Below are positions 6,127-31,736 of a stretch of DNA of 34,469 nt, one piece after another. Source of the stretch: Arenimonas sp. (GTDB lineage: Bacteria; Pseudomonadota; Gammaproteobacteria; Xanthomonadales; Xanthomonadaceae). The notes beneath the pieces were generated by a model. It did not search any database and was not told the DNA's origin. It saw only the letters and a program-made list of their open reading frames with translations. Position numbers and translations under genes: made by a program. How positions within the stretch are numbered: position 1 is the first letter of the stretch; each line of letters begins with the position of its first letter. The stretch spans positions 1 to 34,469 of the forward strand of contig JBKJMY010000276.1 of NCBI GenBank assembly GCA_046596115.1, read 5' to 3'.

Positions 6127-9100
6127 GCGGCGGGCCTGTGTCGCAGCAGCGCATCGAGTGCCAACACGAATGCGGGCGGCAAGGTCACCGCATGCAGGCC
6201 CGGCCGCGCCGGGTCATTGCGATCCAGGCCGCGGCTGAACACATAACGCACGCCGCCGAGATGGCGCGCGATGTCGTAGTCGGCGCCCATGCGGAACTGC
6301 AGCCAGCGATGCAGGGCGAGGCTGTACAGCACGTACTGCAGGTCGTATTCGGCATCGCGCACCGCGCGCTGCAGGCTGGCGTGGTCGTAGCCGGGCAGCT
6401 GGTTGGATTTGTAGTCCAGCACGTAATGGCGGCCATCGGCCTCGTAGACCAGGTCGATGAAGCCGGTGAGCAGGCCTTCGATGCGTTGGCGCAGACCAAA
6501 GCCGTGCCGCGCCTGCACCAGCCCATGCGCATGCAGGGTGGCGAGCAGTGCGTCCACGGTGACTGGCGCCAGCGACAGGTGGAATTCCATTTCTGCGATG
6601 CGCCGCGCCGCCGGCAGCAAGGCCAGCCGGGTGCCTTCCGGCATCGGGGCGTTCAGGGTTTCGCCGATCAATGCGGACAGTTGCGTGACGCCTTCGCTGC
6701 GATCTCCCTCGGTGTCGAAGCCGTGCTGGGCAAGTGCCTCGACCACGGCGTCAAACTGTCCGGTCGGCGGGGCCGGGCCGCGCCAATCCAGCCACGCGGC
6801 GAAGTCCACCCGTTCAAGTGCGCGGTGCAAGGCATTGCCAAAGCGCGGGCCTGCATAGCGCGAGTAGTCCAGCGTGGTCACCACGTCGCGTTCGTCATCG
6901 GCGGGTTGCGCTTCGGCAAGGCCTTCCTCGCGTGCGAGCTGCGAAAAGCTGTATACCCACCAGTCGCGGTCATATTGGCGCAGCGGCACGCGCGCCGGTG
7001 GCGTCGCGACGGCATCCACGAAGCGCAGGCGCGGCAAGGTGTCGACGGCCTCGATCGTCACCGCTGGCGCAATTGCGATGGCGTCCGGCGCCAGCGCCTG
7101 CAACTCGTGCAGCCGCGCCTGCACGGCGTTGTCGTCGAGCTTTGCCAGCTCGACCATCACATCGTCGGCCATGCCGTCATCGCCTGCGCAGACACTGGCC
7201 ATGCTGTCATCGACCGCGCCGTCATCGACCGCGCCGTCATTGGCTGCGCTGTCATTGGCACGCTCCGCGCCCGCTGGACGATGCAGCAACCAGCCCAGCG
7301 CAGTCTTGTGTGCATCCTTCACCGCGCCCCAACCAATCCAGGTGGCCAGGCGTGCGCGGGTCAATCCGACATAGAGCAGGCGGATCTGCTCAGCGCGCGT
7401 CTCGCGCGTCTCCTGCCTGGTCGCCGGATCATCCTTGTCCGGATACAAGGTGGCGAGGCGGTCCAGGCCGATGTGGTGGCGCGCCATCGGCGGCTTGCCG
7501 GCGCGCTGCGATCCACTGCTGGTCGCCGCGAAGGGCAGGAACACCAGGTCCAGGGTCAGGCCCTTGCTGACATGCAAGGTCATGATGCGCACGCGCGCCG
7601 AGTCCGACTCCAGCCGCAACAGGTCTTCATCGCTGACGTCCTCGGCTTGGGCGATGCGCGTTTCCAGGTCGGCCAGCAGGCCGGCCAATCCGGGCGCGCG
7701 ATCCACGCCCGATTGCAGTGCCTCGGCCAGTTGCAGGTAGTTGGACACGCGGCGCTCGCCATCGGGCCAGCCAAGCAGGCGCGCCGCCTGCGCTTCGCAC
7801 AACTCGCCCACCAGGGCCATCGGCCCGTGCCGGCGCACCCGCTCCTGCCAGTGCTCGAGCTTGTCCTGCCAGATGCGATGGCTGGGCAGGTCGGTGTCGA
7901 AAGCGGCGATCTGCGCGGCGTCGAGGCCGAATAGCGGCGTTGCCAGCGCGGCGCGCAGGCGGCCGTCATCGGCGGGTGCGAGCAGCGCTTCCAACAGCCA
8001 GCACAGGTGCGTGGCCTCGTCGGTCTGGTACAGGCTCAGCCGTCCTGCCGATACGCTGGGGATGCCGCGCGCCGACAACGCGCGCTGGACGGCTTCGCCA
8101 TCGCGGTGGCGCGGCACCAGTACGCTGATGTCGCCGGGCGCGACCGCGCGGGTCGTGCCATGGCGATCGGTGAGCACTGCGCGGCCGGCCTGCGCGGCCG
8201 ATAACAGCGAATGAATCGCCGCGACGCAGGCTGCGGTGGCGGCCTCGCGCGAGCGATCAATGCTGGTATCGAGCGGATCCTCGCGTACCGGCAGCAGCAC
8301 CAGCGCCGGCGCGTCTGCCCCATCAATGCGTAGTGCGTCATCATTGCAGCTGCCGCCGGGCTCGACCGGCTCGAAGGCGATGCCGGGTTGGTCGAAGGCA
8401 CCCGGCCCGCGCAGCGTGAACATTGCCTCGGTGGCGGCCAGTGCACGCGGGCGCGAGCGGAAATTACGCCGCAGGGTGTGGGTTGCGGCGGCTTCGGATT
8501 GCGCCTGCAGGTACGTGGCGACATCGCCGCCACGGAACCGGTAGATCGCCTGCTTCGGGTCGCCGATCAGGAACAGTGCACGCGGCGTGTCGCCATCGCC
8601 GTCTCCGTCTCCGTCTCCGTCACTCATGGCATACGCATCGGCATCGACATTTGCATCTGCATCGGCATCTGTATTGGCGGGCTGCCCGAACAGCCGCCGG
8701 AAGATATCCCACTGGCGCGGATCGGTGTCCTGGAACTCGTCCACCAGGGCGATGGCGTATTGCCGTTGCAGGGCGGCGGCGAACCCGCCATCCACGTCGC
8801 GCGCCAGACAGGTGTGCACGCCGCGGATCATGTCATCGAAGCCCATCAGTCCGCGTGATTGCTTCAGCGCTGCGCAGCGTGCGATGGCAAAGTCGCGCGC
8901 TGCATGGATCATCGCGATGCGCGCGACCTGCTGCGATTGTTCGTTCGCCTCGGCAGCCTCGACCCAGGCTTGGACCGCGTCGAACAGCGGCGACTGCGGC
9001 GTGGTCTTGTTCTTGTTGGTGCGCTTGGCCAGCATGCTGCTCGAGAATGTCGCCAGCTTGCCGTCTGACGGGTCGTCATCGGCGGGCGAGGACCAATGCC

Positions 9101-9968
9101 GTAGCGCGTCCCAGGCCCTGGCAATGTTGGACGCCTTGACCGACCCTGCGTTCAGCGACTTGTCGGCACAGGCAGCCAGCAGTGACGCGTGGGCTTCATC
9201 GCCGTGTTTTGCAAACGCAGCGGCGAGCGCAATGCGCGCCGCGCGCAAGGCATCACCGGCTTGCGCAGACTCGGAGGTCGGTGGCTCGGGTGGCGGCAGC
9301 AGTCCATCCAGCGCCATCGCATCGCGCAGGAAGCCCGCCAGCGCCTTTGGCGACGACCATAGCGACAACAGGGTTTGCGCATCGGGCTGCGCGCGCGAAT
9401 GCTCGCGCCAGAACTCCAGCGCCACCTCGTGCCGCAACTCGGATTCGTCGAGCAGCACGTCGTACGCAGTCAACGGCCGGCCGGCTACCAGCGCGTGGTC
9501 GCGCAAGGCGCGCTGGCAGAAGCCATGGATGGTATGGATCGGCGCGAGATCCATCTGCTCGGCGGCGCGGCGCAGGCGTGCAAGCAGCGCCGGTACGCCC
9601 TCGCGCGCGCTCGCACCGACCAGCAGGCGCTTGGCCAGGGCGATATGCGCATGGTCGGCGGAATCGGCCCGCAACGCGGCGATCGGATCATCGCGCTCGA
9701 GCAGCTTCAACGCGTTGAGCAAGCGGCCGCGCAGTTGCTCACGCAGATCCTTGGTTGCCGCCTCGGTGAAAGTGACCGCCAGCAGGCGTGACACCGGCAA
9801 GCCGAGCTCGATCACCAGGCGCGAATACAGGGTCGCCACGGTGAAGGTCTTGCCGGTGCCGGCGCTGGCCTCGAGCAACTGGATGCCGGCGATCGGGATG
9901 CGCAGGGCCAGATCCAGGTTGGCATCGCCCATTGCGGCTTCGTCGCGCACTGGTGTGTGCTCAGTCAT
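6123..9968 (-). CDS. recB: Exodeoxyribonuclease V beta subunit RecB
   Basis: EASAGTGKTFT, VTFTEAAT, LVDEFQDTD, IGDPKQAIYRFRGGD, MTLHVSKGL, LLYVGLTRAR and the C-terminal nuclease motif GFIDLVY...LDYKSN. Start MTEHTP at 9968 overlaps the recC stop (ATGACTGA). Confidence 0.96.
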   Translation of the reverse strand: MTEHTPVRDEAAMGDANLDLALRIPIAGIQLLEASAGTGKTFTVATLYSRLVIELGLPVSRLLAVTFTEAATKDLREQLRGRLLNALKLLERDDPIAALRADSADHAHIALAKRLLVGASAREGVPALLARLRRAAEQMDLAPIHTIHGFCQRALRDHALVAGRPLTAYDVLLDESELRHEVALEFWREHSRAQPDAQTLLSLWSSPKALAGFLRDAMALDGLLPPPEPPTSESAQAGDALRAARIALAAAFAKHGDEAHASLLAACADKSLNAGSVKASNIARAWDALRHWSSPADDDPSDGKLATFSSSMLAKRTNKNKTTPQSPLFDAVQAWVEAAEANEQSQQVARIAMIHAARDFAIARCAALKQSRGLMGFDDMIRGVHTCLARDVDGGFAAALQRQYAIALVDEFQDTDPRQWDIFRRLFGQPANTDADADANVDADAYAMSDGDGDGDGDGDTPRALFLIGDPKQAIYRFRGGDVATYLQAQSEAAATHTLRRNFRSRPRALAATEAMFTLRGPGAFDQPGIAFEPVEPGGSCNDDALRIDGADAPALVLLPVREDPLDTSIDRSREAATAACVAAIHSLLSAAQAGRAVLTDRHGTTRAVAPGDISVLVPRHRDGEAVQRALSARGIPSVSAGRLSLYQTDEATHLCWLLEALLAPADDGRLRAALATPLFGLDAAQIAAFDTDLPSHRIWQDKLEHWQERVRRHGPMALVGELCEAQAARLLGWPDGERRVSNYLQLAEALQSGVDRAPGLAGLLADLETRIAQAEDVSDEDLLRLESDSARVRIMTLHVSKGLTLDLVFLPFAATSSGSQRAGKPPMARHHIGLDRLATLYPDKDDPATRQETRETRAEQIRLLYVGLTRARLATWIGWGAVKDAHKTALGWLLHRPAGAERANDSAANDGAVDDGAVDDSMASVCAGDDGMADDVMVELAKLDDNAVQARLHELQALAPDAIAIAPAVTIEAVDTLPRLRFVDAVATPPARVPLRQYDRDWWVYSFSQLAREEGLAEAQPADDERDVVTTLDYSRYAGPRFGNALHRALERVDFAAWLDWRGPAPPTGQFDAVVEALAQHGFDTEGDRSEGVTQLSALIGETLNAPMPEGTRLALLPAARRIAEMEFHLSLAPVTVDALLATLHAHGLVQARHGFGLRQRIEGLLTGFIDLVYEADGRHYVLDYKSNQLPGYDHASLQRAVRDAEYDLQYVLYSLALHRWLQFRMGADYDIARHLGGVRYVFSRGLDRNDPARPGLHAVTLPPAFVLALDALLRHRPAA

Positions 9969-12900
9969 CGCCAGCCCCTGCGCCTGCGCCTGCCCCGATG
10001 TTCGCGTCGACCCCGATGTTCGCGCCAGCTGCCGATGTCGCGGCTTGGCCACATGACGATGCGTTGGTACCCGCGGGTAGGCAGGAAAAAATTTCCGCAG
10101 CCAGGATCTGCATCCGCGCGGTTTGCGCAGCATGTTCGAACGGCATCGCGCCACGCAGGGCGATGCGCACCGCTGCATCGCTGCCTTCGCCGTTCGCGCC
10201 GGACCAGGAATTGCGCGCTTGCTTGCGCGCCGTCTCGTCATCGCCCGCGAGCCACAACAGGTGACCGGCCTTGGGCATGAAGGCCAGCGCCTCCAGTCGT
10301 GCCCGCGCGGCCAGTTGCAGAAGTGCCTGGAGATTGGCGCGCGCTTGGGCGGCGGGCATCGGTGCAATCGTTTCGATGCCGCCATCGAGCACAAAGCGCG
10401 AGATCGGCGTCGTCTCGCCCAGCGCTGACCAGGCCAGTGCGTCCACGCCGAGCGCGATCAGGCTGCGGCCATGGCCTTTGCTGGCGCTGAATTGGCGCAG
10501 CCCGCCATCGTGTACTCGCGGCAACACGCCGGCCAGGCGATGCGCGCCAAGGTCGAGTTGCCAAGGCAGCGGCCGGGTCGCGCCGGCATTGCGCCAGGCG
10601 TCGAAGGCCGGTGCCAGTCGTTGGATCGATTGCCGTAGCGCGTCGCGGCCCGCCGCGCCGGGCGCGATGCGGCCTTCGGCCAGCAGGCGCGCGGCCAATG
10701 CATCCACGCCCACCGGCGCGTGCGAGGGCAGGTCGAATGCAAGGTCGAACACGCGGGTATCGAGTTGCCAGCGGCCCAGGCCGTCGTTGCCGTCGAAGGG
10801 TTCTTCGTCGGGCAGCAGCTCGTCGCGCTCGGGCGTACGCAGGCCGAGGCGCTCGGCCAGGAATTCCCGTGGTGGATGGGCGAGTGCGCGTACCAGTTGA
10901 TCGCGGGTCCAGTCCAGCGGCGCTTCCATCGCCGGCGGATCCAGGGCGCGCGCGAACGGCGCCGCACTGCGCCGCTCCTGGTTGCCTGCAATGGCAGCAT
11001 CACTCCAGCCGCGTCGGTAGCTGAAGCGACGTGCATCGGCGCCCTGGCCGGCGTCACCACCCAGTGCCGCCGGGGAAAACGGCTGCAGCGGATGCACCAC
11101 CAGCAAGTCGCGGCGGGCAAGCTCGGGATCGCCAAAGTAGCGGGCGGCGATGTCGAGCAACTCGGACACCACCACCGAGGGCGGCAAGCTTTCACCACTG
11201 CGCGGGTCCTGGCCAAGGTAACTGACATGAAACGCCTGCGTGGCGGCCGAAAACAATTGCAGGAACAGCGCGCGATCATCATCGCGGATCGAGCGATCGC
11301 CGAGCTTGCGCTGCGGTCCGCCCAGCGCGGCGGCGAGGCGATTGACTCCGGCGGGTGGATCGCGGCGCGGGAACTCGCCATCGCTCATGCCGAGCAGGCA
11401 GATCACCTTGAACGGCACCAGCCGCATCGGCACCATCTTGCCGAAGGTGACACCGCCGGTGAGGAACGGTTGGCGACCGTTGTCCTCATCAAGTGCCGCG
11501 TTGAACCAGTCGCGTACCACTGACGCTGCGACCGGCTCGACAATACCGGCCGCGAACGACTCATCGGCAAACTGCTTGACCAGTGCGCGCAGGAATTCCA
11601 GCGCGCGCCCGTCGCCGGGATCGCGCGGCACCTCCGGGAACAGTGCCTCGAGCAACTGCGACAGTGCCGCCTGCCAGGCGGCTGGCGCGCGCGCGGCCGC
11701 AAGCGCGCGTTGGCCATGCGCGAGCGCCCGCAGCGCCTGCAGCAGGCGATCGAACGATGCCAGGGCGCTGCCCTCAAGCACCGGCAGCGGCGCGATGGCA
11801 TCGATGTTGTCATCGCTGCCGGTGGCGTGTCCGAGCAGCAGGCGATCCAGCGCCCAGGCCCAGGTGAAGGCGTCCTCGCGCGGCGCGCCGAGCGCGGCGC
11901 GATGGTCCGCATCCAGGCCCCAGCGCGCACCTGCAGCCTGCAACCAGGCAGACAGGGTGTCCAGCTCGACCGATGCAATGCCGAAGCGTTCGGCGATCGC
12001 GCCCACCGAGAGCAGGGCGAGCACGTCGTTGATCCCGAAGCGCGCCTCGGGCAGCGCGAGCAATTGCACGAAGGCCTGCGCCACCGGTTGCGTTGCCAGC
12101 GCGCTACCGTCGCCGATCGCAAACGGAATGGCCTGGCGCGGCGCGGATTCGGCACCGAACACCGCCTGCACGAACGGCGAATAGGCGTCGATGTCCGGGG
12201 TGAGCACGGCGATGTCGCGCGGCTGCAAGCCGGGATCGGACTCGAGCAGGGCGCGCAGTTGTTCGTGCAGCACCTGCACTTCGCGCAACCGGGTGTGGCA
12301 GCTGTGAACCTGCAGGGACGCGTCCACCCGCCCATTGGTGGCGTAAAGCGGCAAGCCGGCGCGCCTGGCCGGATCGAGGTCGGGCGGCGGGCGGCGCTCG
12401 AGCAGGTCGCGCTGCAGGCGGTGCAGCAGCCCGGTGCGCAGTTCTGGATCCGGCCCAACGTAAAGCGGCTCCTCGAAATCCGGATGCACGACCTCGTAGG
12501 AAAACAGCGTGCGTACGAAGTCGCGTCCGGCCGACCCATTGGCCCGCAGAAGCGGGTTTTCGCTGTCGGAAAACACTGTATCGGGGGCATCGCGCAGCAG
12601 TTCGCGGGTGCTGCGCAAATCGCCCCACCAGCCGCGCACCGGCGAGAGAAAGTAGAAGTGCACGATTCCCGAGCGCGAGGCGCTGGCGATGACGCGCAGC
12701 ACGTCGGGCGACACGTTCTGCGTGGCGAAGGCGAACACCCGCCCGGGCAGCCCGGCTGGAGCAGCATCGCCGCCGGCGCCGAAGCGTTGCAGGTAGGCAT
12801 CCACGCGCCGCGCGCGGTGGCTCAGCCCATGCGTGGCTAGCCGCCACAACTCGGCCTGCCAGTCGTCGCGGCCCGCACCGCGGTCCCAGCCCAGCAGCCA

Positions 12901-13356
12901 GTCGCGCCGCCATGCCTGGTATTTCTCGAAGGCGTCGGCCACCTCGCCGGCAAGCTGCCAGGCCGCCAGCGCCGGATCGGCACCACCGAGCAGGGGCTGC
13001 AGCGGCCGAAGCACCGGGGCGCGCATTTGCGCCGGATCCGACAGCACCCGCCACAGCCGCCAGCGCAGCCGCCGCGGATCCGCGATCGCCGCGGCACTGG
13101 CATCAGGCACGTTGCCATCCAGTGCACGCGCGACGAATTCGCCCGGTGCCAGGAATTCCAGATTGGCCGCGATGCCATGCACTTCGGCCAGGTGTTTCTG
13201 CAGCCAGCGGCGCATCGCCGGCTGCGGGATCAGCACCGTGTCCGGGGCGAGCAGGGCATTGCCGGGCGCGGGCCGGGCCAGTTCCGCCGCCAGCAAGCCC
13301 GCCAACAGCTCGAGGTCGTTGCCGTGGTACAGGCGGAAATCGGTTGGCACAGGCAT
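9961..13356 (-). CDS. recC: Exodeoxyribonuclease V gamma subunit RecC
   Basis: FRLYHGNDLELL, SLQVHSCHTRLREVQVLHEQL, PRDIAVLTPDIDAYSPF, GGVTFGKMVPMRLVPFKVICLLGM and HPLQPFS. recC-recB-recD gene order. Start set at MPVPTD (13356). Confidence 0.95.
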   Translation of the reverse strand: MPVPTDFRLYHGNDLELLAGLLAAELARPAPGNALLAPDTVLIPQPAMRRWLQKHLAEVHGIAANLEFLAPGEFVARALDGNVPDASAAAIADPRRLRWRLWRVLSDPAQMRAPVLRPLQPLLGGADPALAAWQLAGEVADAFEKYQAWRRDWLLGWDRGAGRDDWQAELWRLATHGLSHRARRVDAYLQRFGAGGDAAPAGLPGRVFAFATQNVSPDVLRVIASASRSGIVHFYFLSPVRGWWGDLRSTRELLRDAPDTVFSDSENPLLRANGSAGRDFVRTLFSYEVVHPDFEEPLYVGPDPELRTGLLHRLQRDLLERRPPPDLDPARRAGLPLYATNGRVDASLQVHSCHTRLREVQVLHEQLRALLESDPGLQPRDIAVLTPDIDAYSPFVQAVFGAESAPRQAIPFAIGDGSALATQPVAQAFVQLLALPEARFGINDVLALLSVGAIAERFGIASVELDTLSAWLQAAGARWGLDADHRAALGAPREDAFTWAWALDRLLLGHATGSDDNIDAIAPLPVLEGSALASFDRLLQALRALAHGQRALAAARAPAAWQAALSQLLEALFPEVPRDPGDGRALEFLRALVKQFADESFAAGIVEPVAASVVRDWFNAALDEDNGRQPFLTGGVTFGKMVPMRLVPFKVICLLGMSDGEFPRRDPPAGVNRLAAALGGPQRKLGDRSIRDDDRALFLQLFSAATQAFHVSYLGQDPRSGESLPPSVVVSELLDIAARYFGDPELARRDLLVVHPLQPFSPAALGGDAGQGADARRFSYRRGWSDAAIAGNQERRSAAPFARALDPPAMEAPLDWTRDQLVRALAHPPREFLAERLGLRTPERDELLPDEEPFDGNDGLGRWQLDTRVFDLAFDLPSHAPVGVDALAARLLAEGRIAPGAAGRDALRQSIQRLAPAFDAWRNAGATRPLPWQLDLGAHRLAGVLPRVHDGGLRQFSASKGHGRSLIALGVDALAWSALGETTPISRFVLDGGIETIAPMPAAQARANLQALLQLAARARLEALAFMPKAGHLLWLAGDDETARKQARNSWSGANGEGSDAAVRIALRGAMPFEHAAQTARMQILAAEIFSCLPAGTNASSCGQAATSAAGANIGVDANIGAGAGAGAGDD

Positions 13357-13424
13357 CGGGTCATGATGCCCGAAGCAGTCGCACCGGTTGCGATTGCCGC
13401 GTGCGGCGCCCGTCTCGCACTGCA

Positions 13425-15044
13425 TCAATCCAGCGCCGCGTGGTCCTCGAAGCGAATCGAGTGCCGAATCCCGGGATTGAGCGGCTCCACCCGGTAGGCG
13501 CCCTGCTGGGCCAGCACGCGGTCGGTGATCGCCGGCAGCAGGTGCGGATCGATCGGGAACTCGACCACGGGCGCTGCCTCCATGTCGATGCACATGGACA
13601 CTTCGATCCGCTGCGGCTGCGCTGGCGAGATGTCCACCCGAACCAGTACGCGGCGGAACGATGTGCTGCGCGTTGCTTCGCGCACGGCGGCCTGGCAGAT
13701 CCGGTAGATCGTGGTCTTGGCGTCATCGGTGAGGGTGTCGAGGCGCCCGTGGAATGCCGTTTCGTAGGCGATGCCGCTGTCCTCGAGAGTGTCGCGCAAT
13801 GGCCCGAAGTCGAGCGCCTCGCGCAGGCCGTGGGTGTCGAGCGCCTGCGGGCGCAGGTTGCGCAGTACCCGACGCAGGCTGTCCTGCATCTCGCGCACCT
13901 GCTCGCGTACTGATTCCAGCAGCCGCAGCGTCTGTTCGTCGCGCACGTCGCGGAACGCCAGGCTGATGCGTGTGCTCAGCGCGTGGATCGAGCGGCCCAA
14001 CTCGTAGTCCAGTTCCACCGCCAATTCCCGCTGGCCCTGTTCCTCGAGACGGACCAGGCGCTGGCTGACCGAGCGCAACTCGGCGGCCGACTCGGTGAGC
14101 GATCGGTTCATCAAGGCCAGGTCGCGGTGCCGTGACGCGAGCCGTTCGTTGCTGCGTCGCAGCTCGCTGCTGGCAGCACCCAGCACCAGCCCGCCGCCGC
14201 CCATCACTGCCAGCGACAGCTGCAGGACACGGACATCCCACGGCAGCAGCCCGAACGCGACCAGGCCTTGCACCAGCAGTCCGGCGATCGCCACCGCCAC
14301 TGCTGCGCCCTCCCATCCGCGCCGGAACGCAATGGCAAAGATCGGCGTGAAGGCGAGCAGCAGCACGTACGGTTCCAGGTCGTGGCGGCGCCCGATCAAC
14401 CAGAACACCGCCAGCGCAAACAGCACCTGCGCCATGATATCCACCGCCAGTGCCCTGTCGATCCGCGCGCGCAGGTCGGGCCGCGCCAGTAGCACCAGCA
14501 GGGGCGCGAGCACCAATTGGCCCAGGAAATCGCCATACAGGAACCCGAAGGCGCCGATAATCCCGGCGCGCTGGTCTGCAGGCAGCAGGAACCACTGCAG
14601 CAGCGGTGACACGCTGGCCGCGGCCAGCACGCCGGCACTGAGCAAGAGCAGCATCCGCTTGGGATCGCCGATGCGTGATTGCGGCTCCGGGCCGCGCACC
14701 AGCCGCACCAGCGCGGCGTACACGAGCCAGGGAACCAGGCCGGTGCCGATGAAACGTTGATCGAACGCCCAGCCCTCATGCAGTGCGATCAGCGCCTGGC
14801 CGGTCCATTCACCCAGCAACAGCCAGCCCCAGCGCCGGGATGGAAGCACCCAGAGCGCGCCCAGGCGAAGGCCCGCGGGCAGGAACCAGAACCGGTGGGA
14901 CACCGCGGCCAAGGCGATCCAGGCCAGTGCGTAGGCGGCAGAGACCGCCGCCATCCGCCACCGCGACGCGGTCCAGTACCCGGTTGCAGTCACCTCCCGG
15001 GTCGAACGGGCGGCTAGCGGCTCGGTCTGCGCGGGTACGGCCAT
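13425..15044 (-). CDS. MASE1-domain membrane sensor with degenerate UhpB/NarX-type (HisKA_3) kinase core
   Basis: N-terminal multi-TM region (WFLPAGLRLGAL, GDFLGQLVLAP, AFRRGWEGA), then a coiled coil, LVRLEEQGQRELAVELDYELG, LRNLRPQALD and IYRICQ. Start uncertain; the ORF extends to 15146. Confidence 0.82.
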   Translation of the reverse strand: MAVPAQTEPLAARSTREVTATGYWTASRWRMAAVSAAYALAWIALAAVSHRFWFLPAGLRLGALWVLPSRRWGWLLLGEWTGQALIALHEGWAFDQRFIGTGLVPWLVYAALVRLVRGPEPQSRIGDPKRMLLLLSAGVLAAASVSPLLQWFLLPADQRAGIIGAFGFLYGDFLGQLVLAPLLVLLARPDLRARIDRALAVDIMAQVLFALAVFWLIGRRHDLEPYVLLLAFTPIFAIAFRRGWEGAAVAVAIAGLLVQGLVAFGLLPWDVRVLQLSLAVMGGGGLVLGAASSELRRSNERLASRHRDLALMNRSLTESAAELRSVSQRLVRLEEQGQRELAVELDYELGRSIHALSTRISLAFRDVRDEQTLRLLESVREQVREMQDSLRRVLRNLRPQALDTHGLREALDFGPLRDTLEDSGIAYETAFHGRLDTLTDDAKTTIYRICQAAVREATRSTSFRRVLVRVDISPAQPQRIEVSMCIDMEAAPVVEFPIDPHLLPAITDRVLAQQGAYRVEPLNPGIRHSIRFEDHAALD

Positions 15045-25042: not shown

Positions 25043-26029
25043 ATGCGCCTGCCGCTGATCGCCATCCTGCTGTCCACTGCCTGCGCCACGGGCTTCGCCT
25101 CTGCCACCACGACCACGCCTACCACCTTGCCGCCGGTGTTGCCGCCGCCGGCCATCGTGCTCGATGGCGCCACCAAGCCGGCTACCAAGCCTGCCACCAA
25201 GCCGGCCGACATCCCCGCCGCCATGCCGAAGTCGGCGTCGCCGGCCGAGCAAGACGCACCGGTGGCAGCCAGCGACAGCACGGCCGCGTCGCTGGACCGC
25301 GCGCTGGCAGGCGACTGGCGCAGCGCCGGCAACGTCGGCCGCGACGTGTACCGGCATCCGCGCGAAACGCTCGGCTTCTTTGGCGTGCGCGACAACCAGA
25401 CCGTGATCGAGATCTGGCCCGGCGGCGGCTGGTACGCCGAAGTGCTCGCGCCGATGCTGCGCAAGAACGGCCACTACATCGCGCTGGTGACAAAACCCAC
25501 GGGCGACGAGAAGTCGCGCGCGTCCACGCAGCGCGGCAACGATGCCTTGCGCACGAAGTTCACCAGTCACCCCGAGGCGTTCGACGGCGCCGAAGTCCGC
25601 GAGTCCGACAACGCGAGCCCTGATCTCGGGCCGCCCGCGTCCGTGGATGCGGTGCTGACCTTCCGCAATGTCCACAACTGGGTGATGGCCGGCAACGAGC
25701 AGGCCATGTTCAAGGCGTTTTTCGAAGTGCTGCGCCCGGGCGGCACGCTGGGCGTGGTTGATCATCGCGCCGCCGAAGACCAGCCGCCGGCAGAGATGAA
25801 GAGCAGCGGCTACCTGCCCGAAGCCTATGTCATCGCGCTGGCCGAGGCCGCCGGGTTCAAGCTTGCCGGCAAGAGCGAGGTCAACGCCAATCCACGTGAC
25901 ACCAAGGACTATCCCGGTGGCGTGTGGACGCTGCCGCCGACCCTGTCCAAGGGCGATGCGGACCGCGCGAAGTACCTGGCGATTGGTGAAAGCGACCGCA
26001 TGACGCTGAAGTTCACCAAGCCCGAATAA
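25043..26029 (+). CDS. Exported class I SAM-dependent methyltransferase-like protein
   Basis: Signal peptide, a Pro/Thr/ATKP linker, then RDVYRHPRETLGFFG, VIEIWPGGGWY, DAVLTFRNVHNW, LRPGGTLGVVDHRA, NANPRD, GVWTLPP and IGESDRMTLKF. Confidence 0.88.
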   Translation: MRLPLIAILLSTACATGFASATTTTPTTLPPVLPPPAIVLDGATKPATKPATKPADIPAAMPKSASPAEQDAPVAASDSTAASLDRALAGDWRSAGNVGRDVYRHPRETLGFFGVRDNQTVIEIWPGGGWYAEVLAPMLRKNGHYIALVTKPTGDEKSRASTQRGNDALRTKFTSHPEAFDGAEVRESDNASPDLGPPASVDAVLTFRNVHNWVMAGNEQAMFKAFFEVLRPGGTLGVVDHRAAEDQPPAEMKSSGYLPEAYVIALAEAAGFKLAGKSEVNANPRDTKDYPGGVWTLPPTLSKGDADRAKYLAIGESDRMTLKFTKPE

Positions 26030-26112
26030 TCACGCGGCCGCGGTGTTGCCAAGCTGGTCTGCCTGATCGCACGTTCCGGCGCGCGCGGATCTGCAATCGC
26101 GGGATGTGCTTG

Positions 26113-28098
26113 CTACTTTGCCAGCGCCCGCTGGCGCAGGGCGAGCAAGCGGGGGTCGCCTTTGCCCGAATGCTGCGCGTCGATGGACTGCAATGATTGT
26201 TCCAGCAACGCCTGCCGGGCCTTCGTGTCGGGCGCGAGCATGGCCACGCCGATGCGTGCCGCGGCCGCGGCGAGCACGGTGGCGCGGTCGTCCGGATGCT
26301 CGGCAAGCTGCGGCTCCAGGATCGCCAGGGCCTCGCGCAATGCACGCTGCGCGGACGCCGGATCACCGGCAACCACGTCCTGCTCGGCGCGTTCGATGAG
26401 CGCCTCGGCAAGCTCGCGCTTCCAGTCCGATCGGGTGGGATCCTTGGCGATCATGCCGCGCAGGAGCAGCGTGGCCTGCGCAACCCTGGCATGCGCGCCT
26501 TCGAAGTCGCCACCTTGGCGCAACAGGCTCGCCAGTTGGGTCGAATACAGCCCGACGTCTTCCTGAAACCCAGTGCTGTTGGGATCGGCATCGAGCAGGC
26601 GCAAAGCCTTGGCGACAGCCTGGGACAGCAGGTCGGTCGCGACGTCCAGCTCGCCATCCAGCGCAAGCGTGCGGCCAAGGGTGGCCAGCGCGATCAGGTG
26701 GCGCTCGGTCTGCGCGTTGTTGCGCGGGTCGGCCCGCGCCAGCGCTTCCTCGATCATGGCATCGGCCCGATAGCCGGCGATCGCGGCCTTCAGGTCGCCA
26801 CGCAGCAGCGCCATCTTGGCCAGGTTGTTGTGCGCCAGCCCGAGTTCGTTCTGGAAACTGGTCTTCTTCGGATTGAGCTCGACCAGTTTTCGCGATGCGT
26901 CCAGCATGGTCTGGTAGTACGTCGTTGCCTGGTCAATGTGGCCGCGGCTTTCCAGGACGTGGCCGAGATTGTTGTCCAGGGTGGCCAGTTGGAAAAGAAG
27001 GTCCAGATCATCCGGCGCCAGCTTGCGCGCCGCCAGCAGCACGCGGCTGGCCGCTTGGAAACCGGCCTGCGCCTTGTCCAGGTCGCCCTGGTACCACTGG
27101 GCATAGCCGACATAGGCCAGCGTGTCGGACAGGGCCAACTGCCGGGCCAGGTTGGCAGGCGCCTGGCGGGCGAGCGGCTCTTGCAGGCGCTGCGCAGCCT
27201 GGAATGCACTCAGCGCCTTGGGCAGGTGTCCCTGGTCCATGCGCACGCTGCCGATCTTGATCAACGCCTTGGCGCGTTGCTCGAGTGCCTCCTCGGTGAC
27301 ATCGGTCGCCGGCAGCGACTCGAAGTAGCCCATGGCCTGGTCGTTGACTGCCTCCAGGATATCCAGCCGCGACACTTCCGACAGTTTGTCGTTGAGGTCG
27401 CCGAGCATGAAGTTGACCAGTTGCTCGGCCTGCTTCTGCCGGCGCTCGGCCGCGTGCCTGGCGATTACCGCCTGCACTGCCAGGAAGCTTGTTGTCAGCA
27501 TTACCAGCGTGGCCAGGGCGGTGATCGCGAGCATGCGCCGATGTCGCCGCTGCGCCTCGCGCTGGCGCAAGGTATCCAGCGGGACACCGAGCAACCCGGA
27601 CAGGATCTTCAACAGCGCGAGCGCCTTGCCGTCCTTGCCGTCCCGTACGTCGGCGGCAATCGGTTCGGAGGGGCGCGTGCCCAGATTGCCGTCGGCGTCG
27701 AGTTCGAAGCGCAGCGTCGTCGGAAAACACTCGCGCGCATCGCCCGCATTCGGTTCGCCAGCGACGATCAGCGCGTAGATGCGAGCGCCCTGCGACTTGC
27801 GCTTGAAGGCAAGGATTTCAGCATCCACCCAACGCGAGCGCGCCGCCTCGGGTGAGCACACAACGATGAGCGCTTCGGATTCGGCGAGTGCGGATTCGAT
27901 CTGCGGGCCCAGTTCGCCGGCGCTCGCCAGTTCCTCGCGATCACGAAAGATCGGCGTCAGCCGGTCGGGCAGCGCGCCGTGCGTGCCGCTGCTGCCGCGC
28001 AGCCGGCTGGGCACGCGGTATGCCTCGATCTGGCGATGCAGCCAGCCCGCCCACTTGGCATCGGCGTGGCGGTAGCTGACGAAGGCGCGGTAACGCAC
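26113..28098 (-). CDS. TIR-domain / single TM / TPR-repeat protein
   Basis: TIR motifs YRAFVSYRHAD, IFRDREEL and LIVVCSPEAARSRWVDAEI. Basic RRHRR precedes a hydrophobic helix (about 27460-27534). TPR-like repeats follow (IGSVRMDQGHLPKAL, VGYAQWYQGDLDKA, LGHVLESRGHIDQA, LAKMALLRGDLKAA, LGRTLALDGELDVA). GTG 28098 follows GGAGGT; alternative GTG at 28104. Confidence 0.9.
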   Translation of the reverse strand: MRYRAFVSYRHADAKWAGWLHRQIEAYRVPSRLRGSSGTHGALPDRLTPIFRDREELASAGELGPQIESALAESEALIVVCSPEAARSRWVDAEILAFKRKSQGARIYALIVAGEPNAGDARECFPTTLRFELDADGNLGTRPSEPIAADVRDGKDGKALALLKILSGLLGVPLDTLRQREAQRRHRRMLAITALATLVMLTTSFLAVQAVIARHAAERRQKQAEQLVNFMLGDLNDKLSEVSRLDILEAVNDQAMGYFESLPATDVTEEALEQRAKALIKIGSVRMDQGHLPKALSAFQAAQRLQEPLARQAPANLARQLALSDTLAYVGYAQWYQGDLDKAQAGFQAASRVLLAARKLAPDDLDLLFQLATLDNNLGHVLESRGHIDQATTYYQTMLDASRKLVELNPKKTSFQNELGLAHNNLAKMALLRGDLKAAIAGYRADAMIEEALARADPRNNAQTERHLIALATLGRTLALDGELDVATDLLSQAVAKALRLLDADPNSTGFQEDVGLYSTQLASLLRQGGDFEGAHARVAQATLLLRGMIAKDPTRSDWKRELAEALIERAEQDVVAGDPASAQRALREALAILEPQLAEHPDDRATVLAAAAARIGVAMLAPDTKARQALLEQSLQSIDAQHSGKGDPRLLALRQRALAK

Positions 28099-28196
28099 GT
28101 CCACCTCCCAAGCGACTACATCGCTCCCCGCGAGTCCAGCCGATGCCCAAAGTTTACGCCGGCCTGCACCCGAACTGGCCGGTCACCTGGCAGCAC

Positions 28197-29960
28197 CTAT
28201 CCGGCCAGCTGTGCCGATTCCAGCGGCCGTTCCCGATGCAGCAGGATCCACTCGGCATGTTCCTCCAGGCAGGCGCAGCCGAGTGCGAGAAGCAGCTGTC
28301 GCGTCTGCGCATTGCCCTGCGCGTGGTCGAGCCGCTCGCGGCAACTGCCGAACAGCCGCGCCATGAAGCGGAATTGCTTGATCAATTCCTTGTCGGCCTT
28401 CTTGTACGAATAAGCCTCGCGGATGGCCGCAAGCAATGGCAACAGGCCCATCGCGACCACGAGCTTCTGTTGGATCGTCGCCGGCATGGCTGCGCCGCCG
28501 ACCAGCAGGGCGAGTGCGCCGAGCAGGCCACCGGCGAGAGCGACATCGCCAAGCAGTGCCGTCAACCGGTAGGCATGCTCGCGCTGGTTGGTGCCGTCGC
28601 GGTAGTACGCGAGTTGGCCGCCATGGTCGGATTGGCCGACCCAGTGTTCCACCACCCATGCCAGCGCGACACCATCGCCGGACCGGGTGGCGCCACGGAA
28701 CAGGCCGGTCGCGCGCATCGCGTGGCGAATCCAGCTCAGGTCTGTGTCCTGTTTCTGCAGGAAGCTGTCGTAACCCAGGCTGCTGTTGGGTGGCGTTTCC
28801 ACGCCTGCCATGCGCCAGAACAATTGCACCCGCAGGCCCTCGGCCAGGCCGCGATAGTCCAGGTATTTGCGCTGCCACTCGCGCCGCGCACCAACTTGCC
28901 TGACCACCAGCCCGAGCAGGAACAGCAACAGGAACAGTGCAACGTACAGGCGATTGGACTGGACATCTGAAAACAGGATGAAGCTCAGCCCCATGGCCGC
29001 GGCCAGCACATGCGTGGACAGCAGGCTGCTGCGGACGCGGCGCTGGAAATGCACGGCCAGCCAGTCGGCGGAGCGGAACAGGCTGTCGATTTCCCGAACC
29101 GCAGGCGTCGCTTCCGGGCTTCCGGCACCCAGCAGGCTGGTGCTGGCGGCCCCGATCTGTGCGCGGTAGCGCGCGGCATCCTGGTTGAATGCCTGCATCT
29201 GCCCAAACACGTGTAAGTAGTGCGCCGGCATCGGTCCGGCACCATCGGTCCCGCCATCGCAGGTGAGCCAGCGCGAGTGGAAAGCGCTGACGCTGCGCGC
29301 ATCCGCATGCGTCGTGCCAGTCGGTGCGCCGGAGATGCGGCGGCTGCATGGCAGGTGGAACACCAGGTCGCTTTCGTCGTCGGCCAACAGGTTAGGCGCG
29401 ATCTGTTCCATGCTCAGGCCCGGCATGACATTGCGCAGGTGGAAGTCCACCACCTGCGCGGTGCCCCCGGTGGCCGAGCTGGGCCGGCCATCCCACAACG
29501 CCAGCAGGATCTGGCAGTGCGATGACATGAACATCCCCAGTTGCGCGTACTGCAGGTTGCGCGCTCCGCCGCGTTCGTGGATGGCTGCGGCGTCATTGCC
29601 CGGCGCCAGCGGTAAAATCCGCGTCCGGCCCTGGGCGAGCAGGGCGTGGAACCGGGACAGCAAATCAGGCGTGCGGAAATCGCGCTCGTATTCCTCGCGT
29701 GGCATCGGCAGCGCCACCATCAGTTCGATGCCAAGCGCCAGCGCTTCCTCGGCCACCAGTTGGTCGCCGCCTTCGGCCAGTGCCGAGATCAGGCGCAGCG
29801 GCAGGTGCGGAAAATCCGATTGCAGGCGGCGGAAGAATGCGCGGACCTGGGTACGCAGGAAGGCTTCCTCCTCGGACACCAAGTCGCGATGTGCGGTGAG
29901 ACCGATGCTCAGCCGCAGCTCGGCATCCGGCTGTTCGCTGATTGGTCGCGCCCGATCCAT
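28197..29960 (-). CDS. SLOG-like nucleotide-binding domain fused to two SLATT-like 2TM effector modules
   Basis: N-terminal SLOG-type motifs SIGLTAHR, LISALAEGGDQLVAE, LPMP..Y..DF and CQILLALWDG...GGTAQVV. C-terminal ADWLAVHFQ-2TM-WQRKYLDYRGLAEGLR, then GQLAYY-2TM-...LEEHAEW, typical of SLATT modules. Start ATG 29960; the ORF track starts at TTG 29978. Confidence 0.78.
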   Translation of the reverse strand: MDRARPISEQPDAELRLSIGLTAHRDLVSEEEAFLRTQVRAFFRRLQSDFPHLPLRLISALAEGGDQLVAEEALALGIELMVALPMPREEYERDFRTPDLLSRFHALLAQGRTRILPLAPGNDAAAIHERGGARNLQYAQLGMFMSSHCQILLALWDGRPSSATGGTAQVVDFHLRNVMPGLSMEQIAPNLLADDESDLVFHLPCSRRISGAPTGTTHADARSVSAFHSRWLTCDGGTDGAGPMPAHYLHVFGQMQAFNQDAARYRAQIGAASTSLLGAGSPEATPAVREIDSLFRSADWLAVHFQRRVRSSLLSTHVLAAAMGLSFILFSDVQSNRLYVALFLLLFLLGLVVRQVGARREWQRKYLDYRGLAEGLRVQLFWRMAGVETPPNSSLGYDSFLQKQDTDLSWIRHAMRATGLFRGATRSGDGVALAWVVEHWVGQSDHGGQLAYYRDGTNQREHAYRLTALLGDVALAGGLLGALALLVGGAAMPATIQQKLVVAMGLLPLLAAIREAYSYKKADKELIKQFRFMARLFGSCRERLDHAQGNAQTRQLLLALGCACLEEHAEWILLHRERPLESAQLAG

Positions 29961-29978
29961 TCGCGCATGATGCCCCAA

Positions 29979-31736
29979 TCACACCTCGCCGGTCTGCAGG
30001 CGCCATAGCGCGGCATAGGCGCCGCCACGGGCGAGCAGTTGGTCGTGGGTTCCGCTCTCGACCAGGCGCCCGCCATCAAGCACGTGGATGGCGTCGGCCT
30101 GGCGCACGGTGGACAGGCGGTGCGCGACAACCAGGGTGGTGCGCTGGTGCGCGATGCGCGCGAGCGAGCGCTGGATCGCGGCTTCGGTTTCGTTGTCCAC
30201 CGCTGAGGTAGCTTCGTCGAGAACCAGCAAGGCCGGCTCGCGATACAGCGCCCGGGCCAGGGCAATGCGCTGGCGCTGGCCACCGGACAATTGCGCGCCG
30301 CGCTCGCCCACCGGGCTGGCATAGCCCAGCGGCAAGGCGGCGATGAAAGCATGCGCCTCGGCATCGCGCGCCGCCGACTCGATGCGCGCTGCGGATGGCG
30401 TCGCGTCGCCATAGGCGATGTTGTCGGCGATGCTGCCATCGGTGAGGAACGGCTCCTGGGCGACGTAGCCGATCCGCTGGCGCAGCGAGGCCGGATCGAG
30501 CGATGCGATGTCAATGCCGTCAACGTGGATGGCACCGGCGTCGGGATCGATGAAGCGCAACAGCAACTTCAACAGCGTGCTCTTGCCGCCACCAGTGCCG
30601 CCGACCAGTGCCACGGTCTGGCCGCGGGTAATGTCCAGCGACACATTCGATACGGCGGGGCGGCCGTCATATGCAAAGCAGACGCGATCAAACGACAGCG
30701 CGGCCTGTTCGCGCACCGGCAGCGTGCCATGGCCGCGCGCCGGCAGTGGTGTATCGAGCAAGTCCATCACCCGGGTGACCGAGGCCATCGCGCGCTGGTA
30801 CAGGTCGGTCATGTCGGCCAGTCGGGTCAGCGGCCACAGCAGCCGCTGGGTCAGGTACACCAGCGCCGAATAGCTGCCCACGCCCAGGTCGCCGCGCAGC
30901 GCGAGCACGCCGCCATACAACAGGGTCGACACAAATCCTGCCAGCACCGCCATGCGGATGACTGGCGTGATCGCCGCCGACACCCGGATCGCATCGGCAT
31001 TGCGTGCGCGGTAGGCATCGGAGGCGTCGCGCACATGGCCGGCCTCGAAGGCTTCTGCGGTGTAGGCCTGGATGGTCGCCATGCCGGCCAGGTTGTTGTT
31101 GAGCCGCGATGAGACGGTGGCCGCTGCTTCGCGCGCAGCGGCGTAGCGGGGGTAGAGGCGGCGTTGGAACCAGAAGGCACCCAGGAGTATCAGGGGGACA
31201 GGCAACAGGGCGAGCAAGGCGAGCGAGTTGGTGAGAACGAAGAACACCGCGCCGATCAGCAGCGACGAAATGAACACCTGGATCAGGTCGTTGGCGCCGG
31301 TGTTGAGGAAGCGCTCGATCTGGTTGACGTCCTCGTTCAACAGGGCCATCAAGCGGCCGCTGCGCTCGCGGGCGATGGTGTCCGGCGGCAGTGCCTGCAG
31401 GTGGCCGTAGGCGGCGTTGCGCAATTCGTGTTGCAGGTTTTGCGCCAGGCCGCGCCACTTCAGCGCATACAGGTACTCGAACAGGGATTCGAAGACCCAG
31501 ACGGCAATGGTCAGCGCAACCAGGCAATACAACTGGTCCATCGGCTCGGGCAGGCCCATCCGGGCCAGGAACGAGGCTTTGCGGTTGACCACGACGTCCA
31601 CCGCCACGCCGATCAGCAGCTCGGGCAGCACGTCGAAAATCTTGTTCAGGACGGAGTAGATCGAGCCCAGGACGGCATCGCGCCGATAGGGCCGGGCGAA
31701 GGCCAGCAGGCGACGAAGCGGGTGTGCGTCGGGCAT
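29979..31736 (-). CDS. ABC exporter, fused permease + ATP-binding (MsbA/MdlB-like half transporter)
   Basis: N-terminal TM domain, Walker A GGTGGGKST, Q-loop VAQEPFL, signature LSGGQRQR, Walker B LVLDEATSAVD and H-loop VAHRLST. Confidence 0.95.
   Translation of the reverse strand: MPDAHPLRRLLAFARPYRRDAVLGSIYSVLNKIFDVLPELLIGVAVDVVVNRKASFLARMGLPEPMDQLYCLVALTIAVWVFESLFEYLYALKWRGLAQNLQHELRNAAYGHLQALPPDTIARERSGRLMALLNEDVNQIERFLNTGANDLIQVFISSLLIGAVFFVLTNSLALLALLPVPLILLGAFWFQRRLYPRYAAAREAAATVSSRLNNNLAGMATIQAYTAEAFEAGHVRDASDAYRARNADAIRVSAAITPVIRMAVLAGFVSTLLYGGVLALRGDLGVGSYSALVYLTQRLLWPLTRLADMTDLYQRAMASVTRVMDLLDTPLPARGHGTLPVREQAALSFDRVCFAYDGRPAVSNVSLDITRGQTVALVGGTGGGKSTLLKLLLRFIDPDAGAIHVDGIDIASLDPASLRQRIGYVAQEPFLTDGSIADNIAYGDATPSAARIESAARDAEAHAFIAALPLGYASPVGERGAQLSGGQRQRIALARALYREPALLVLDEATSAVDNETEAAIQRSLARIAHQRTTLVVAHRLSTVRQADAIHVLDGGRLVESGTHDQLLARGGAYAALWRLQTGEV

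What the first reader, a model, noticed from the sequence alone, without database searches (positions are those of the whole stretch)
26113..29960. Candidate new Thoeris-like system: SLOG-SLATT-SLATT membrane effector paired with a TIR-TM-TPR receptor
Seen: two adjacent, co-oriented genes under 100 bp apart, sitting among housekeeping genes. One encodes a SLOG-like domain plus four predicted TM helices; the other a TIR domain, one TM helix and TPRs. Established: in Thoeris, TIR proteins turn NAD+ into ADPR-derived signals, read by a SLOG domain (type I ThsA, SIR2-SLOG) or a Macro domain on a TM effector (type II). SLATT 2TM domains are described as membrane effectors linked to SLOG/SMODS signalling. 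Inference: the TPRs sense a trigger, the TIR makes a nucleotide signal, and the SLOG binds it and gates the SLATT pore, causing membrane depolarisation or abortive infection. I do not recognise this exact pairing as a named system, but I cannot exclude that it is already catalogued.
Basis: partly seen in the sequence, partly recalled or inferred. Interest (0 to 1): 0.9.

Follow-up and report, generated by a model that had tools for sequence, protein, structure and literature searches.

The report
Membrane TIR receptor with SLOG-gated pore
Two neighbouring bacterial genes that are gained and lost together encode a likely membrane-spanning alarm enzyme and a predicted nucleotide-gated membrane protein, so they probably form an untested relative of the Thoeris anti-phage systems whose sensor is predicted to face outside the cytoplasm, like an animal Toll receptor.

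Summary
Observation confirmed. Gene 1 (28197-29960, minus, 587 aa) has a YpsA-type SLOG fold (Z 15.1) and two SLATT hairpins. Gene 2 (26113-28104, minus) is TIR-TM-TPR, with Glu96 invariant in 24 of 24 homologues. The link is real: of 60 relatives, 19 carry both genes, 36 neither, 5 only one, and tree-independent pairs agree (p about 0.004). All 8 'lone' effectors with intact flanks that I searched have the receptor elsewhere in the genome, which fits a diffusible signal. In 12 of 59 loci the partner is an nSTAND1 ATPase with a related TM-TPR tail. The TPRs are predicted to be periplasmic. Against classic defence: no defence family among 133 flanking ORFs, and host-like GC. Nothing was assayed. 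Type VII Thoeris (TIR + SLATT) is published. Earlier notes of this scan found similar modules on other DNA; one says a preprint supplement lists a 'SLOG and 4TM' candidate class, which I could not check. Verdict: new variant of a known kind; the receptor topology is the novel part.

The parts
28197..29960 (-). Gene 1: SLOG-SLATT-SLATT membrane protein, 587 aa (predicted effector)
29271..29918 (-). SLOG domain (residues 15-230), YpsA-like fold; G20, H24, R25, G64, D66, W156, G166, T167 invariant in 50 of 50 aligned homologues
29763..29771 (-). G64-x-D66, matching the GxD/E motif predicted to bind substrate in YpsA (match by motif, not by superposed residues)
   Evidence: PMC6459960 section 14
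29460..29468 (-). GGT motif, residues 165-167 (G165 in 49 of 50; G166 and T167 in 50 of 50)
28812..29084 (-). First SLATT hairpin (SLATT_3/DUF4231-like, residues 293-383; TM 312-330 and 338-356)
28248..28616 (-). Second SLATT hairpin (SLATT_1-like, residues 449-571; TM 470-488 and a weaker 495-513)
28105..28196 (-). 92-bp spacer; GGAG/GGAGG ribosome-binding-like sequence at its end
26113..28104 (-). Gene 2: TIR-TM-TPR protein, 663 aa (661 from GTG 28098); predicted receptor-enzyme
27655..28095 (-). TIR domain (about residues 4-150); F8, S10, Y11, H13, R54-D55-R56 and E96 invariant in 24 of 24
27817..27819 (-). Glu96 codon (GAA), at the position of the TIR catalytic glutamate (role recalled from characterised TIRs)
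27475..27531 (-). Single predicted TM helix (residues 192-210) after a basic RRHRR stretch
26119..27366 (-). TPR superhelix (residues 247-662), predicted periplasmic; the distal half diverges fastest
29979..31736 (-). Upstream flank: ABC transporter, co-oriented; not part of the system (not conserved beside most homologues)
25043..26029 (+). Downstream flank: methyltransferase-like gene, convergent; lies directly against the ABC gene in relatives with an empty site

Best explanation
The two genes are a linked pair that likely works as a Thoeris-like alarm circuit: a predicted single-pass receptor would sense a trigger with TPR repeats outside the inner membrane, its cytoplasmic TIR would cut NAD+ into a small signal, and that signal would bind the SLOG domain of the second protein and open or disrupt its four-helix membrane part. 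Shown here: the domains, the intact TIR glutamate and SLOG pocket motifs, the co-gain and co-loss of the two genes, and their linkage when far apart. Inferred: N-in/C-out topology; ligand-driven clustering of the TIRs; an ADP-ribose-type signal; SLOG as reader; SLATT oligomerisation; growth arrest or death as the outcome; and a biotic threat (most likely a phage protein during adsorption, injection or lysis) as the trigger. The effector is a hub: in other genomes it is served by a SIR2-TIR protein plus an nSTAND1-TM-TPR ATPase, and one genome can hold several receptors for one effector (two receptors and one effector here).
For: Fold: YpsA Z 15.1, well above unrelated rows. GxD invariant in 50 of 50. 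TIR Glu96 invariant in 24 of 24. Both genes are under purifying selection: dN/dS 0.05-0.11 for SLOG, SLATT and TIR against the nearest homologue. Gene context: of 59 loci, 27 have the TIR-TM-TPR gene directly downstream, 12 an nSTAND1-type TM-TPR gene upstream (one has both), 3 other TIR-bearing neighbours, 18 none. Genome co-occurrence in 60 relatives: 19 both, 3 effector only, 2 receptor only, 36 neither. On a recA tree of 57 of them, the receptor follows the effector in 8.4 of 9 independent pairs on average and never the other way, median p 0.004; p 0.03 for the 40 rows at least 90% complete. The reversed gene order occurs in 7 relatives. 9 of 10 genomes with a 'lone' effector, and 8 of the 8 with intact flanks, hold the receptor elsewhere. 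One dominant hydrophobic helix in 24 of 24 receptors, with more K/R on its N side in 23 of 24. Precedents: type I Thoeris (SLOG reads 3'cADPR) and type VII (TIR + SLATT, cADPR); X. citri PknS, described as cytoplasmic kinase, TM and periplasmic TPRs. The distal TPRs diverge fastest (45-53% identity vs 72-90% for TIR in four of the five homologues compared), as a sensor might. Distant homologues sit beside TIR or DUF4062 genes on other replicons.
Against: No activity, binding or protection was measured. None of 133 flanking ORFs from 34 loci is a recognised defence family (82 had a Pfam hit at 1e-12); mobile-element genes occur at one locus (two resolvases), plus two XerD-like integrases in a housekeeping context. 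The site itself takes ordinary cargo in relatives, such as an ABC-export cassette and transposase-like ORFs. GC and GC3 are host-like. No phage match and only distant plasmid matches. About half of the genus carries it (18 of 36 near-full-length matches). The topology rests on hydropathy and a modest charge bias (5-6 vs 3-5 K/R); the model shows one long helix with pLDDT under 50 at 195-222. No ThsA SLOG was among the listed fold matches, so the ligand cannot be read off. dN/dS in the distal TPRs stays under 1 (0.27-0.61).
Confidence: 0.5

Rival explanations
1. Same wiring, but not a suicide defence against phage: the receptor senses predators, competitors or envelope stress, and the signal gates a regulated, non-lethal ion channel, in the logic of the ADP-ribose-gated TRPM2 channel.
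For: Housekeeping neighbours and host-like GC; long-term retention with the genes apart; the PknS TM-TPR receptor serves resistance to amoebae; distant homologues lie beside ion-channel/TrkA/RyR genes; the SLOG fold also matches TRPM N-termini, more weakly (Z about 7-8).
Against: Repeated gain and loss (11 changes for the effector on 57 tips) and sensor swapping are typical of conflict systems; characterised TIR + SLATT operons are antiphage.
Confidence: 0.25
2. The hydrophobic helix does not cross the membrane (it is an anchor or packs in a coiled coil), so the TPRs sense phage proteins in the cytoplasm and this is an ordinary new Thoeris type with a SLOG-SLATT effector.
For: No topology experiment; basic residues flank both sides; low model confidence over the helix; most of the small partner proteins found beside the receptor show no obvious signal peptide on inspection.
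Against: The helix is the single strongest hydrophobic segment in 24 of 24 receptors (peak 1.62-2.84; second best at most 1.65), and the same element precedes the TPRs in the STAND partners.
Confidence: 0.12
3. The TIR is itself the toxic NAD+-depleting effector, and the SLOG-SLATT protein is a brake or modifier, for example a SLOG glycosidase that destroys the product.
For: LOG-clade SLOG domains are N-glycosidases (PMC9503650); the Thoeris preprint warns that TIRs of unverified types may be effectors; 2 of 60 relatives have the receptor clade without a detected effector.
Against: The best fold match is YpsA, not LOG (Z 15.1 vs 9.3 or less); a brake does not need four conserved TM helices; the effector serves unrelated TIR heads.
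Confidence: 0.11
4. The two genes are unrelated cargo that happen to sit together at an insertion site.
For: The ABC-methyltransferase junction takes varied inserts.
Against: Adjacent in 27 of 59 loci at many different sites, in both orders, and co-present across independent tree pairs.
Confidence: 0.02

Closest known systems
Type VII Thoeris (ThsB TIR + ThsH SLATT; canonical cADPR), bioRxiv 10.64898/2025.12.03.692087
   Same: TIR gene next to a SLATT membrane protein; TIR glutamate intact.
   Different: In the passages read, ThsH is described with a SLATT domain and pockets between protomers, with no SLOG; here a SLOG domain is fused to two SLATTs and the TIR is fused to a TM helix and TPRs. 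That study drew on TIR clusters enriched near defence genes; these loci are not. Its figures and tables could not be seen.
Candidate Thoeris class 'SLOG and 4TM' (reported by scan note e1-4325442 as listed in the supplementary tables of the same preprint)
   Same: By its label, the same effector layout: SLOG plus four TM helices beside a TIR.
   Different: Not verifiable here: '4TM' occurs 0 times in the main text and the supplements are closed. If it is this family, the effector class is already catalogued as a putative type. No passage read describes a membrane-spanning TIR-TPR receptor.
Type I Thoeris (ThsB TIR + ThsA SIR2-SLOG; 3'cADPR)
   Same: TIR writer and SLOG reader; more than one TIR gene per effector is possible.
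   Different: Output is a membrane domain, not a SIR2 NADase; the SLOG is YpsA-like; no PADLOC Thoeris model hits.
Type III Thoeris (several TIRs + SLOG-containing effector)
   Same: TIR plus SLOG effector; 9 of 24 receptors hit NCBIfam ThcB4 weakly (best E 1e-4); the window protein scores 13.7 bits against a cut-off of 220.
   Different: One TIR gene in the operon; no type III effector model hits any of 50 effectors. The primary paper was not found in the library.
SLOG/SLATT nucleotide-centric conflict systems (Burroughs et al. 2015; Pfam SLATT_3 and SLATT_1)
   Same: The Pfam names read 'SMODS and SLOG-associating 2TM effector'. Recalled, from no call: SLATT_3 is described as fused N-terminally to SLATT_1 and linked to TIR or SLOG genes.
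   Different: Computational prediction only. The paper was not held, so I cannot say whether it shows this exact pair. The TIR here looks active.
PknS of Xanthomonas citri (PMC13147305)
   Same: Cytoplasmic enzyme, one TM helix and periplasmic TPRs, in the same bacterial order; the periplasmic part is needed for signalling.
   Different: Ser/Thr kinase acting on a sigma factor against amoebae. Homology to this TPR region was not tested directly; the TM-TPR profile found no kinase in the genome or fetched loci.
BcTir/Tpr (bioRxiv 10.1101/2023.05.26.542521, abstract only)
   Same: Two-gene antiphage operon with TIR and TPR.
   Different: TPR is on the second protein, which is the NADase; the abstract mentions no SLOG or membrane effector.

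Membership tests
Thoeris (general) | TIR protein with catalytic glutamate | tested here: met
   TIR_2 and ThsB_TIR above cut-off; E96 in 24 of 24
Thoeris (general) | Separate effector gene with a nucleotide-binding module, conserved with the TIR gene | tested here: met
   SLOG fold; co-occurrence
Thoeris (general) | TIR makes an ADPR-derived signal on infection and the signal activates the effector | not testable with these tools
   needs LC-MS and binding assays
Thoeris (general) | Protects against phage | not testable with these tools
   needs plaque assays
Thoeris (general) | Enriched next to known defence genes (a discovery criterion, not a mechanism) | tested here: not met
   0 recognised defence families among 133 nearest flanking ORFs of 34 loci; 51 had no Pfam hit at 1e-12; no background set was scored
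Thoeris type I | SIR2 domain fused to SLOG in the effector | tested here: not met
   no SIR2 family in any of 50 effectors
Thoeris type II | Macro domain on a TM effector | tested here: not met
   no Macro family; the soluble domain is SLOG
Thoeris type III | Several TIR genes with a SLOG effector matching the curated models | tested here: inconclusive
   ThcB4 hit far below cut-off; no effector model hit; primary paper not seen
Thoeris type VII | SLATT-domain effector beside a TIR gene | tested here: met
   DUF4231 above cut-off; SLATT_3 and SLATT_1 below cut-off in 41 of 50
Thoeris type VII | Homology to ThsH and use of canonical cADPR | not testable with these tools
Candidate class 'SLOG and 4TM' | Listed in the preprint's supplementary tables | not testable with these tools
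   bioRxiv supplements closed; term absent from main text
SLOG superfamily, YpsA clade | YpsA-like fold | tested here: met
   Z 15.1, rmsd 2.7, 159 aligned; next family 11.0; Foldseek E 3e-4
SLOG superfamily, YpsA clade | GxD/E motif | tested here: met
   G64 and D66 in 50 of 50; motif from PMC6459960
Avs/STAND antiviral systems | STAND NTPase in the sensor | tested here: not met
   none in the window protein; present in the alternative partner of related loci
Single-pass receptor with periplasmic sensor (PknS/TLR-like topology) | One TM helix with the enzyme inside and the repeats outside | tested here: inconclusive
   hydropathy and charge bias agree in 24 and 23 of 24; model confidence low there; no experiment

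The most novel reading that the evidence does not exclude
The pathway lives outside defence islands, with receptor and effector often unlinked, which would explain why island-based screens have not characterised it.
Probability: 0.35. Interest if true: 0.85.

Novelty: new variant of a known kind. Interest (0 to 1): 0.62.

Why it matters
Thoeris TIRs characterised so far are described as sensing infection and making a signal for a separate effector; none of the passages I read describes one that spans the membrane with an outside sensor. If the topology and the signal step hold, bacteria have a transmembrane TIR receptor with enzymatic output, joining animal TLR architecture to plant/bacterial TIR chemistry, and a SLOG-gated membrane effector like the TRPM2 arrangement. 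It is directly testable: two genes, clear point mutants, cultured carriers. It also suggests that TIR signalling pathways outside defence islands and split across the chromosome are under-counted.

Tried and rejected
Homo-trimer prediction of the SLATT region (residues 262-580): no verdict, score 0.00 against a mark of 0.42; not evidence either way. RNA runs: no RNA holder listed. Promoter scan: 0 sigma-70-like sites; terminator-like hits all inside genes. Sequence search of the PDB with the effector profile: 0 hits at E up to 1. ThsA SLOG was not listed in the fold searches, which does not exclude kinship. The receptor's fold search returned only TPR proteins. PADLOC: no family for gene 1, only a generic TPR model for gene 2, ShosA weakly in 5 of 50 effectors. 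Atlas: window protein not held; a homologue returned 'hypothetical' clusters, some with DUF4231/SLATT. The 1.84-billion-protein profile search never ran, so the family's far edge is not mapped. Burroughs 2015 and Burroughs and Aravind 2020 were not held. Idea rejected: TPR homologues lacking a TIR annotation carry another head; the 14 fetched are TIR proteins with late start calls. Idea rejected: the site is a defence hotspot; inserts in relatives are an ABC-export cassette and transposase-like or amidohydrolase-like ORFs, judged from sequence. Idea rejected: positive selection on TPRs (dN/dS under 1). The effector tree is the quick one; the careful search did not finish. Viral contigs gave 4 partial matches only.


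Full report
Observation. Two minus-strand ORFs fill the given coordinates: 29960-28197 (587 aa) and 28104-26113 (663 aa), 92 bp apart. Gene 1 starts 18 bp after an ABC-transporter gene; gene 2 ends 83 bp from a convergent methyltransferase-like gene. GC and GC3 match the housekeeping neighbours. The genome has one copy of gene 1 and a second, 40% identical copy of gene 2 on contig C234. The closest titled relatives are Lysobacterales genomes.

Gene 1. Pfam finds DUF4231 above cut-off and SLATT_3 below it; NCBIfam finds SLATT_3 (293-377) then SLATT_1 (449-571), both below cut-off, each in 41 of 50 aligned members. The N-terminal domain has no Pfam hit in this protein; 1-2 of 50 homologues hit the YAcAr or DprA SLOG families weakly. 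The AlphaFold2 model (pLDDT 84.9, pTM 0.87) settles it: YpsA Z 15.1 (rmsd 2.7, 159 residues), DprA 11.0, ShosA 10.3, then Moco-carrier and LOG proteins; TRPM N-termini match more weakly. G20, H24, R25, G64, D66, W156, G166 and T167 are invariant in 50 of 50. G64-x-D66 matches the GxD/E motif that PMC6459960 (passages and Discussion read) predicts binds substrate in YpsA. Family hydropathy gives four helices, the last weakest, in two hairpins with short loops, which would leave SLOG and both termini on one side.

Gene 2. TIR_2 and ThsB_TIR pass cut-off. Glu96 and the FxSY and RDR motifs are invariant in 24 of 24 homologues. One hydrophobic helix (192-210) dominates in 24 of 24, with 5-6 K/R before it and 3-5 after, more on the N side in 23 of 24. 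A TPR superhelix follows. A TIR needs cytoplasmic NAD+ (established knowledge), so a true TM helix puts the TPRs in the periplasm. This is inference: the bias is modest and the model is weak over 195-222. X. citri PknS is described with the same layout, kinase inside and TPRs in the periplasm (PMC13147305, passages). Selection is purifying throughout, and the distal TPRs are the most relaxed part in all five comparisons. This copy and three homologues lack the last 30-50 residues seen in most others.

Do the genes belong together? Of 59 genome loci found with gene 1, 27 have the TIR-TM-TPR gene directly downstream. Twelve have a large upstream gene ending in a related TM-TPR tail (profile E 1e-15 to 1e-21). 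Pfam nSTAND1 was confirmed on the 4 I scanned, and a SIR2-TIR gene was found ahead of it in 7. One locus has both partners, so 38 of 59 have one of the two. Three distant loci have other TIR-bearing neighbours; 18 have none. I searched 10 of those 18 genomes: 9 hold the receptor clade elsewhere, including all 8 whose effector has intact flanks; two effectors lie at contig ends, and one of these is the miss. Among 60 relatives, counting effector matches below 1e-100 and receptor-TIR matches below 1e-29, 19 have both, 3 only the effector, 2 only the receptor and 36 neither; two weak effector hits near 1e-5 were not counted. On a quick recA tree of the 57 with a usable recA, 9 independent pairs differ in the effector, and the receptor follows in 8.4 on average and never the other way (median p 0.004; 7 pairs and p 0.03 for the 40 rows at least 90% complete). 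Seven relatives have the reverse order, often with small genes between. Partner type changes repeatedly on the effector tree (quick tree). Linkage that survives separation and swapping of the TIR head fits a diffusible signal better than a fixed complex; that step is inference.

Is it defence? The context says little for it. The nearest one or two ORFs on each side at 34 loci (133 ORFs from a heuristic gene caller; five references were swapped by hand to skip receptor genes) gave 82 Pfam hits, none a recognised defence family; no background was scored. The ABC and methyltransferase genes lie within about 110 bp of each other in 12 relatives, so the cassette occupies an otherwise empty junction, and other relatives carry unrelated cargo there. 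The family is common in this genus (18 of 36) and rare in the phylum (12 of 400). It is absent from the phage records searched and present only distantly on plasmids, where it again sits beside TIR genes. For defence: patchy gain and loss, NLR-like partners, and the known roles of TIR, SLOG and SLATT.

Mechanism. Most likely (0.5): a trigger clusters the receptor, the TIR converts NAD+ into an ADP-ribose-type signal, SLOG binds it, and the SLATT helices oligomerise and breach or depolarise the inner membrane. Rivals: the same wiring for non-lethal sensing of predators or stress (0.25); cytoplasmic TPRs (0.12); TIR as toxin with gene 1 as brake (0.11); chance (0.02). The wiring from TIR to SLOG-SLATT is shared by the first three readings, about 0.85 in all.

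What is known. In bioRxiv 10.64898/2025.12.03.692087 (passages and sections 5 and 10 read; figures and supplements not seen) type VII Thoeris is TIR + SLATT with cADPR, type III has a SLOG effector, and 29 putative types were annotated from TIR clusters enriched near defence genes. Scan note e1-4325442 says its tables list a 'SLOG and 4TM' class; I could not check this, and it may cover this effector. PMC9503650 and PMC7159879 (passages) state the prediction that SLATT is a nucleotide-regulated pore. Burroughs 2015 was not held; its SLATT_3/SLATT_1 description is recalled. BcTir/Tpr (abstract), PMC10907252 (passages; periplasmic lectin domains predicted on STAND proteins) and PMC13434031 (passages; envelope sensing by Kiwa and Zorya) are further context. 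Ten literature searches returned no paper, in listings or passages read, that describes a TIR-TM-TPR receptor with a SLOG-SLATT-SLATT effector; the library lacks most subscription journals. The scan itself has reported similar modules on other DNA, though sequence look-ups with both proteins returned nothing.

Verdict. Real, conserved and unnamed in the libraries tested. It works like Thoeris by anatomy, but membership is unproven and types I and II are excluded. The effector side is anticipated by published predictions; the membrane-spanning receptor, the shared TM-TPR tail of two sensor types and the linkage in trans outside defence islands are the new parts. New variant of a known kind, interest 0.62.

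Noticed in passing
G000:C234:2182-5313 (minus); also L002, L007, L009, L012, L014, L021-L023, L026, L028-L033, L053, L071, L074-L076: Small proteins of about 130 aa ending in a (D/N)PxIxN-like motif follow the receptor gene in many loci, and two follow the paralogue in this genome, but none follows the window copy. Their profile hits PDB 3njh 'Peptidase' over its full length at E 0.013; recalled as the self-cleaving DP-EP protein SO1698. One has a signal-peptide-like start (L074:9216).
   Followed up: partly
L004, L005, L008, L017, L018, L027, L051 upstream of the effector: Three-gene form: SIR2-TIR, nSTAND1-TM-TPR, SLOG-SLATT-SLATT. L051 has this and the TIR-TM-TPR receptor around one effector; L017 has two extra TIR-TPR genes in between.
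   Followed up: partly
L127:6642-8483 (NZ_CP039902.1): A stand-alone SLOG of this clade directly follows TIR and caspase-family genes on a Ti plasmid, among CHAT-domain genes; it looks like type IV Thoeris with an added SLOG.
   Followed up: no
L052:2083-9812; L204, L206, L207: Distant effector homologues sit beside TIR-WD40, RyR, ion-channel-TrkA-RyR or patatin genes.
   Followed up: no
window 26029-29979: The ABC-methyltransferase junction is a general insertion site: empty in 12 relatives; an ABC-export cassette in G010, G027 and G006; transposase-like ORFs in G034 and G036.
   Followed up: yes
G000 contigs C254, C151, C197, C89, C231, C287, C102, C192, C351, C49, C24: The genome holds many paralogous segments related to the non-TIR part of the TIR-TPR protein L017:6112, on 11 contigs and often in tandem; similar genes flank the cassette in L021-L023, L025, L028 and L030.
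   Followed up: no
L074:4704-11327, L075, L076: In three relatives the reversed cassette lies directly beside the lexA-recA genes, divergent from them; possible SOS link, untested.
   Followed up: no
window 4438-13600 (minus): RecD and RecB-like genes; the long ORF 9961-13593 upstream was not scanned and is probably RecC.
   Followed up: no
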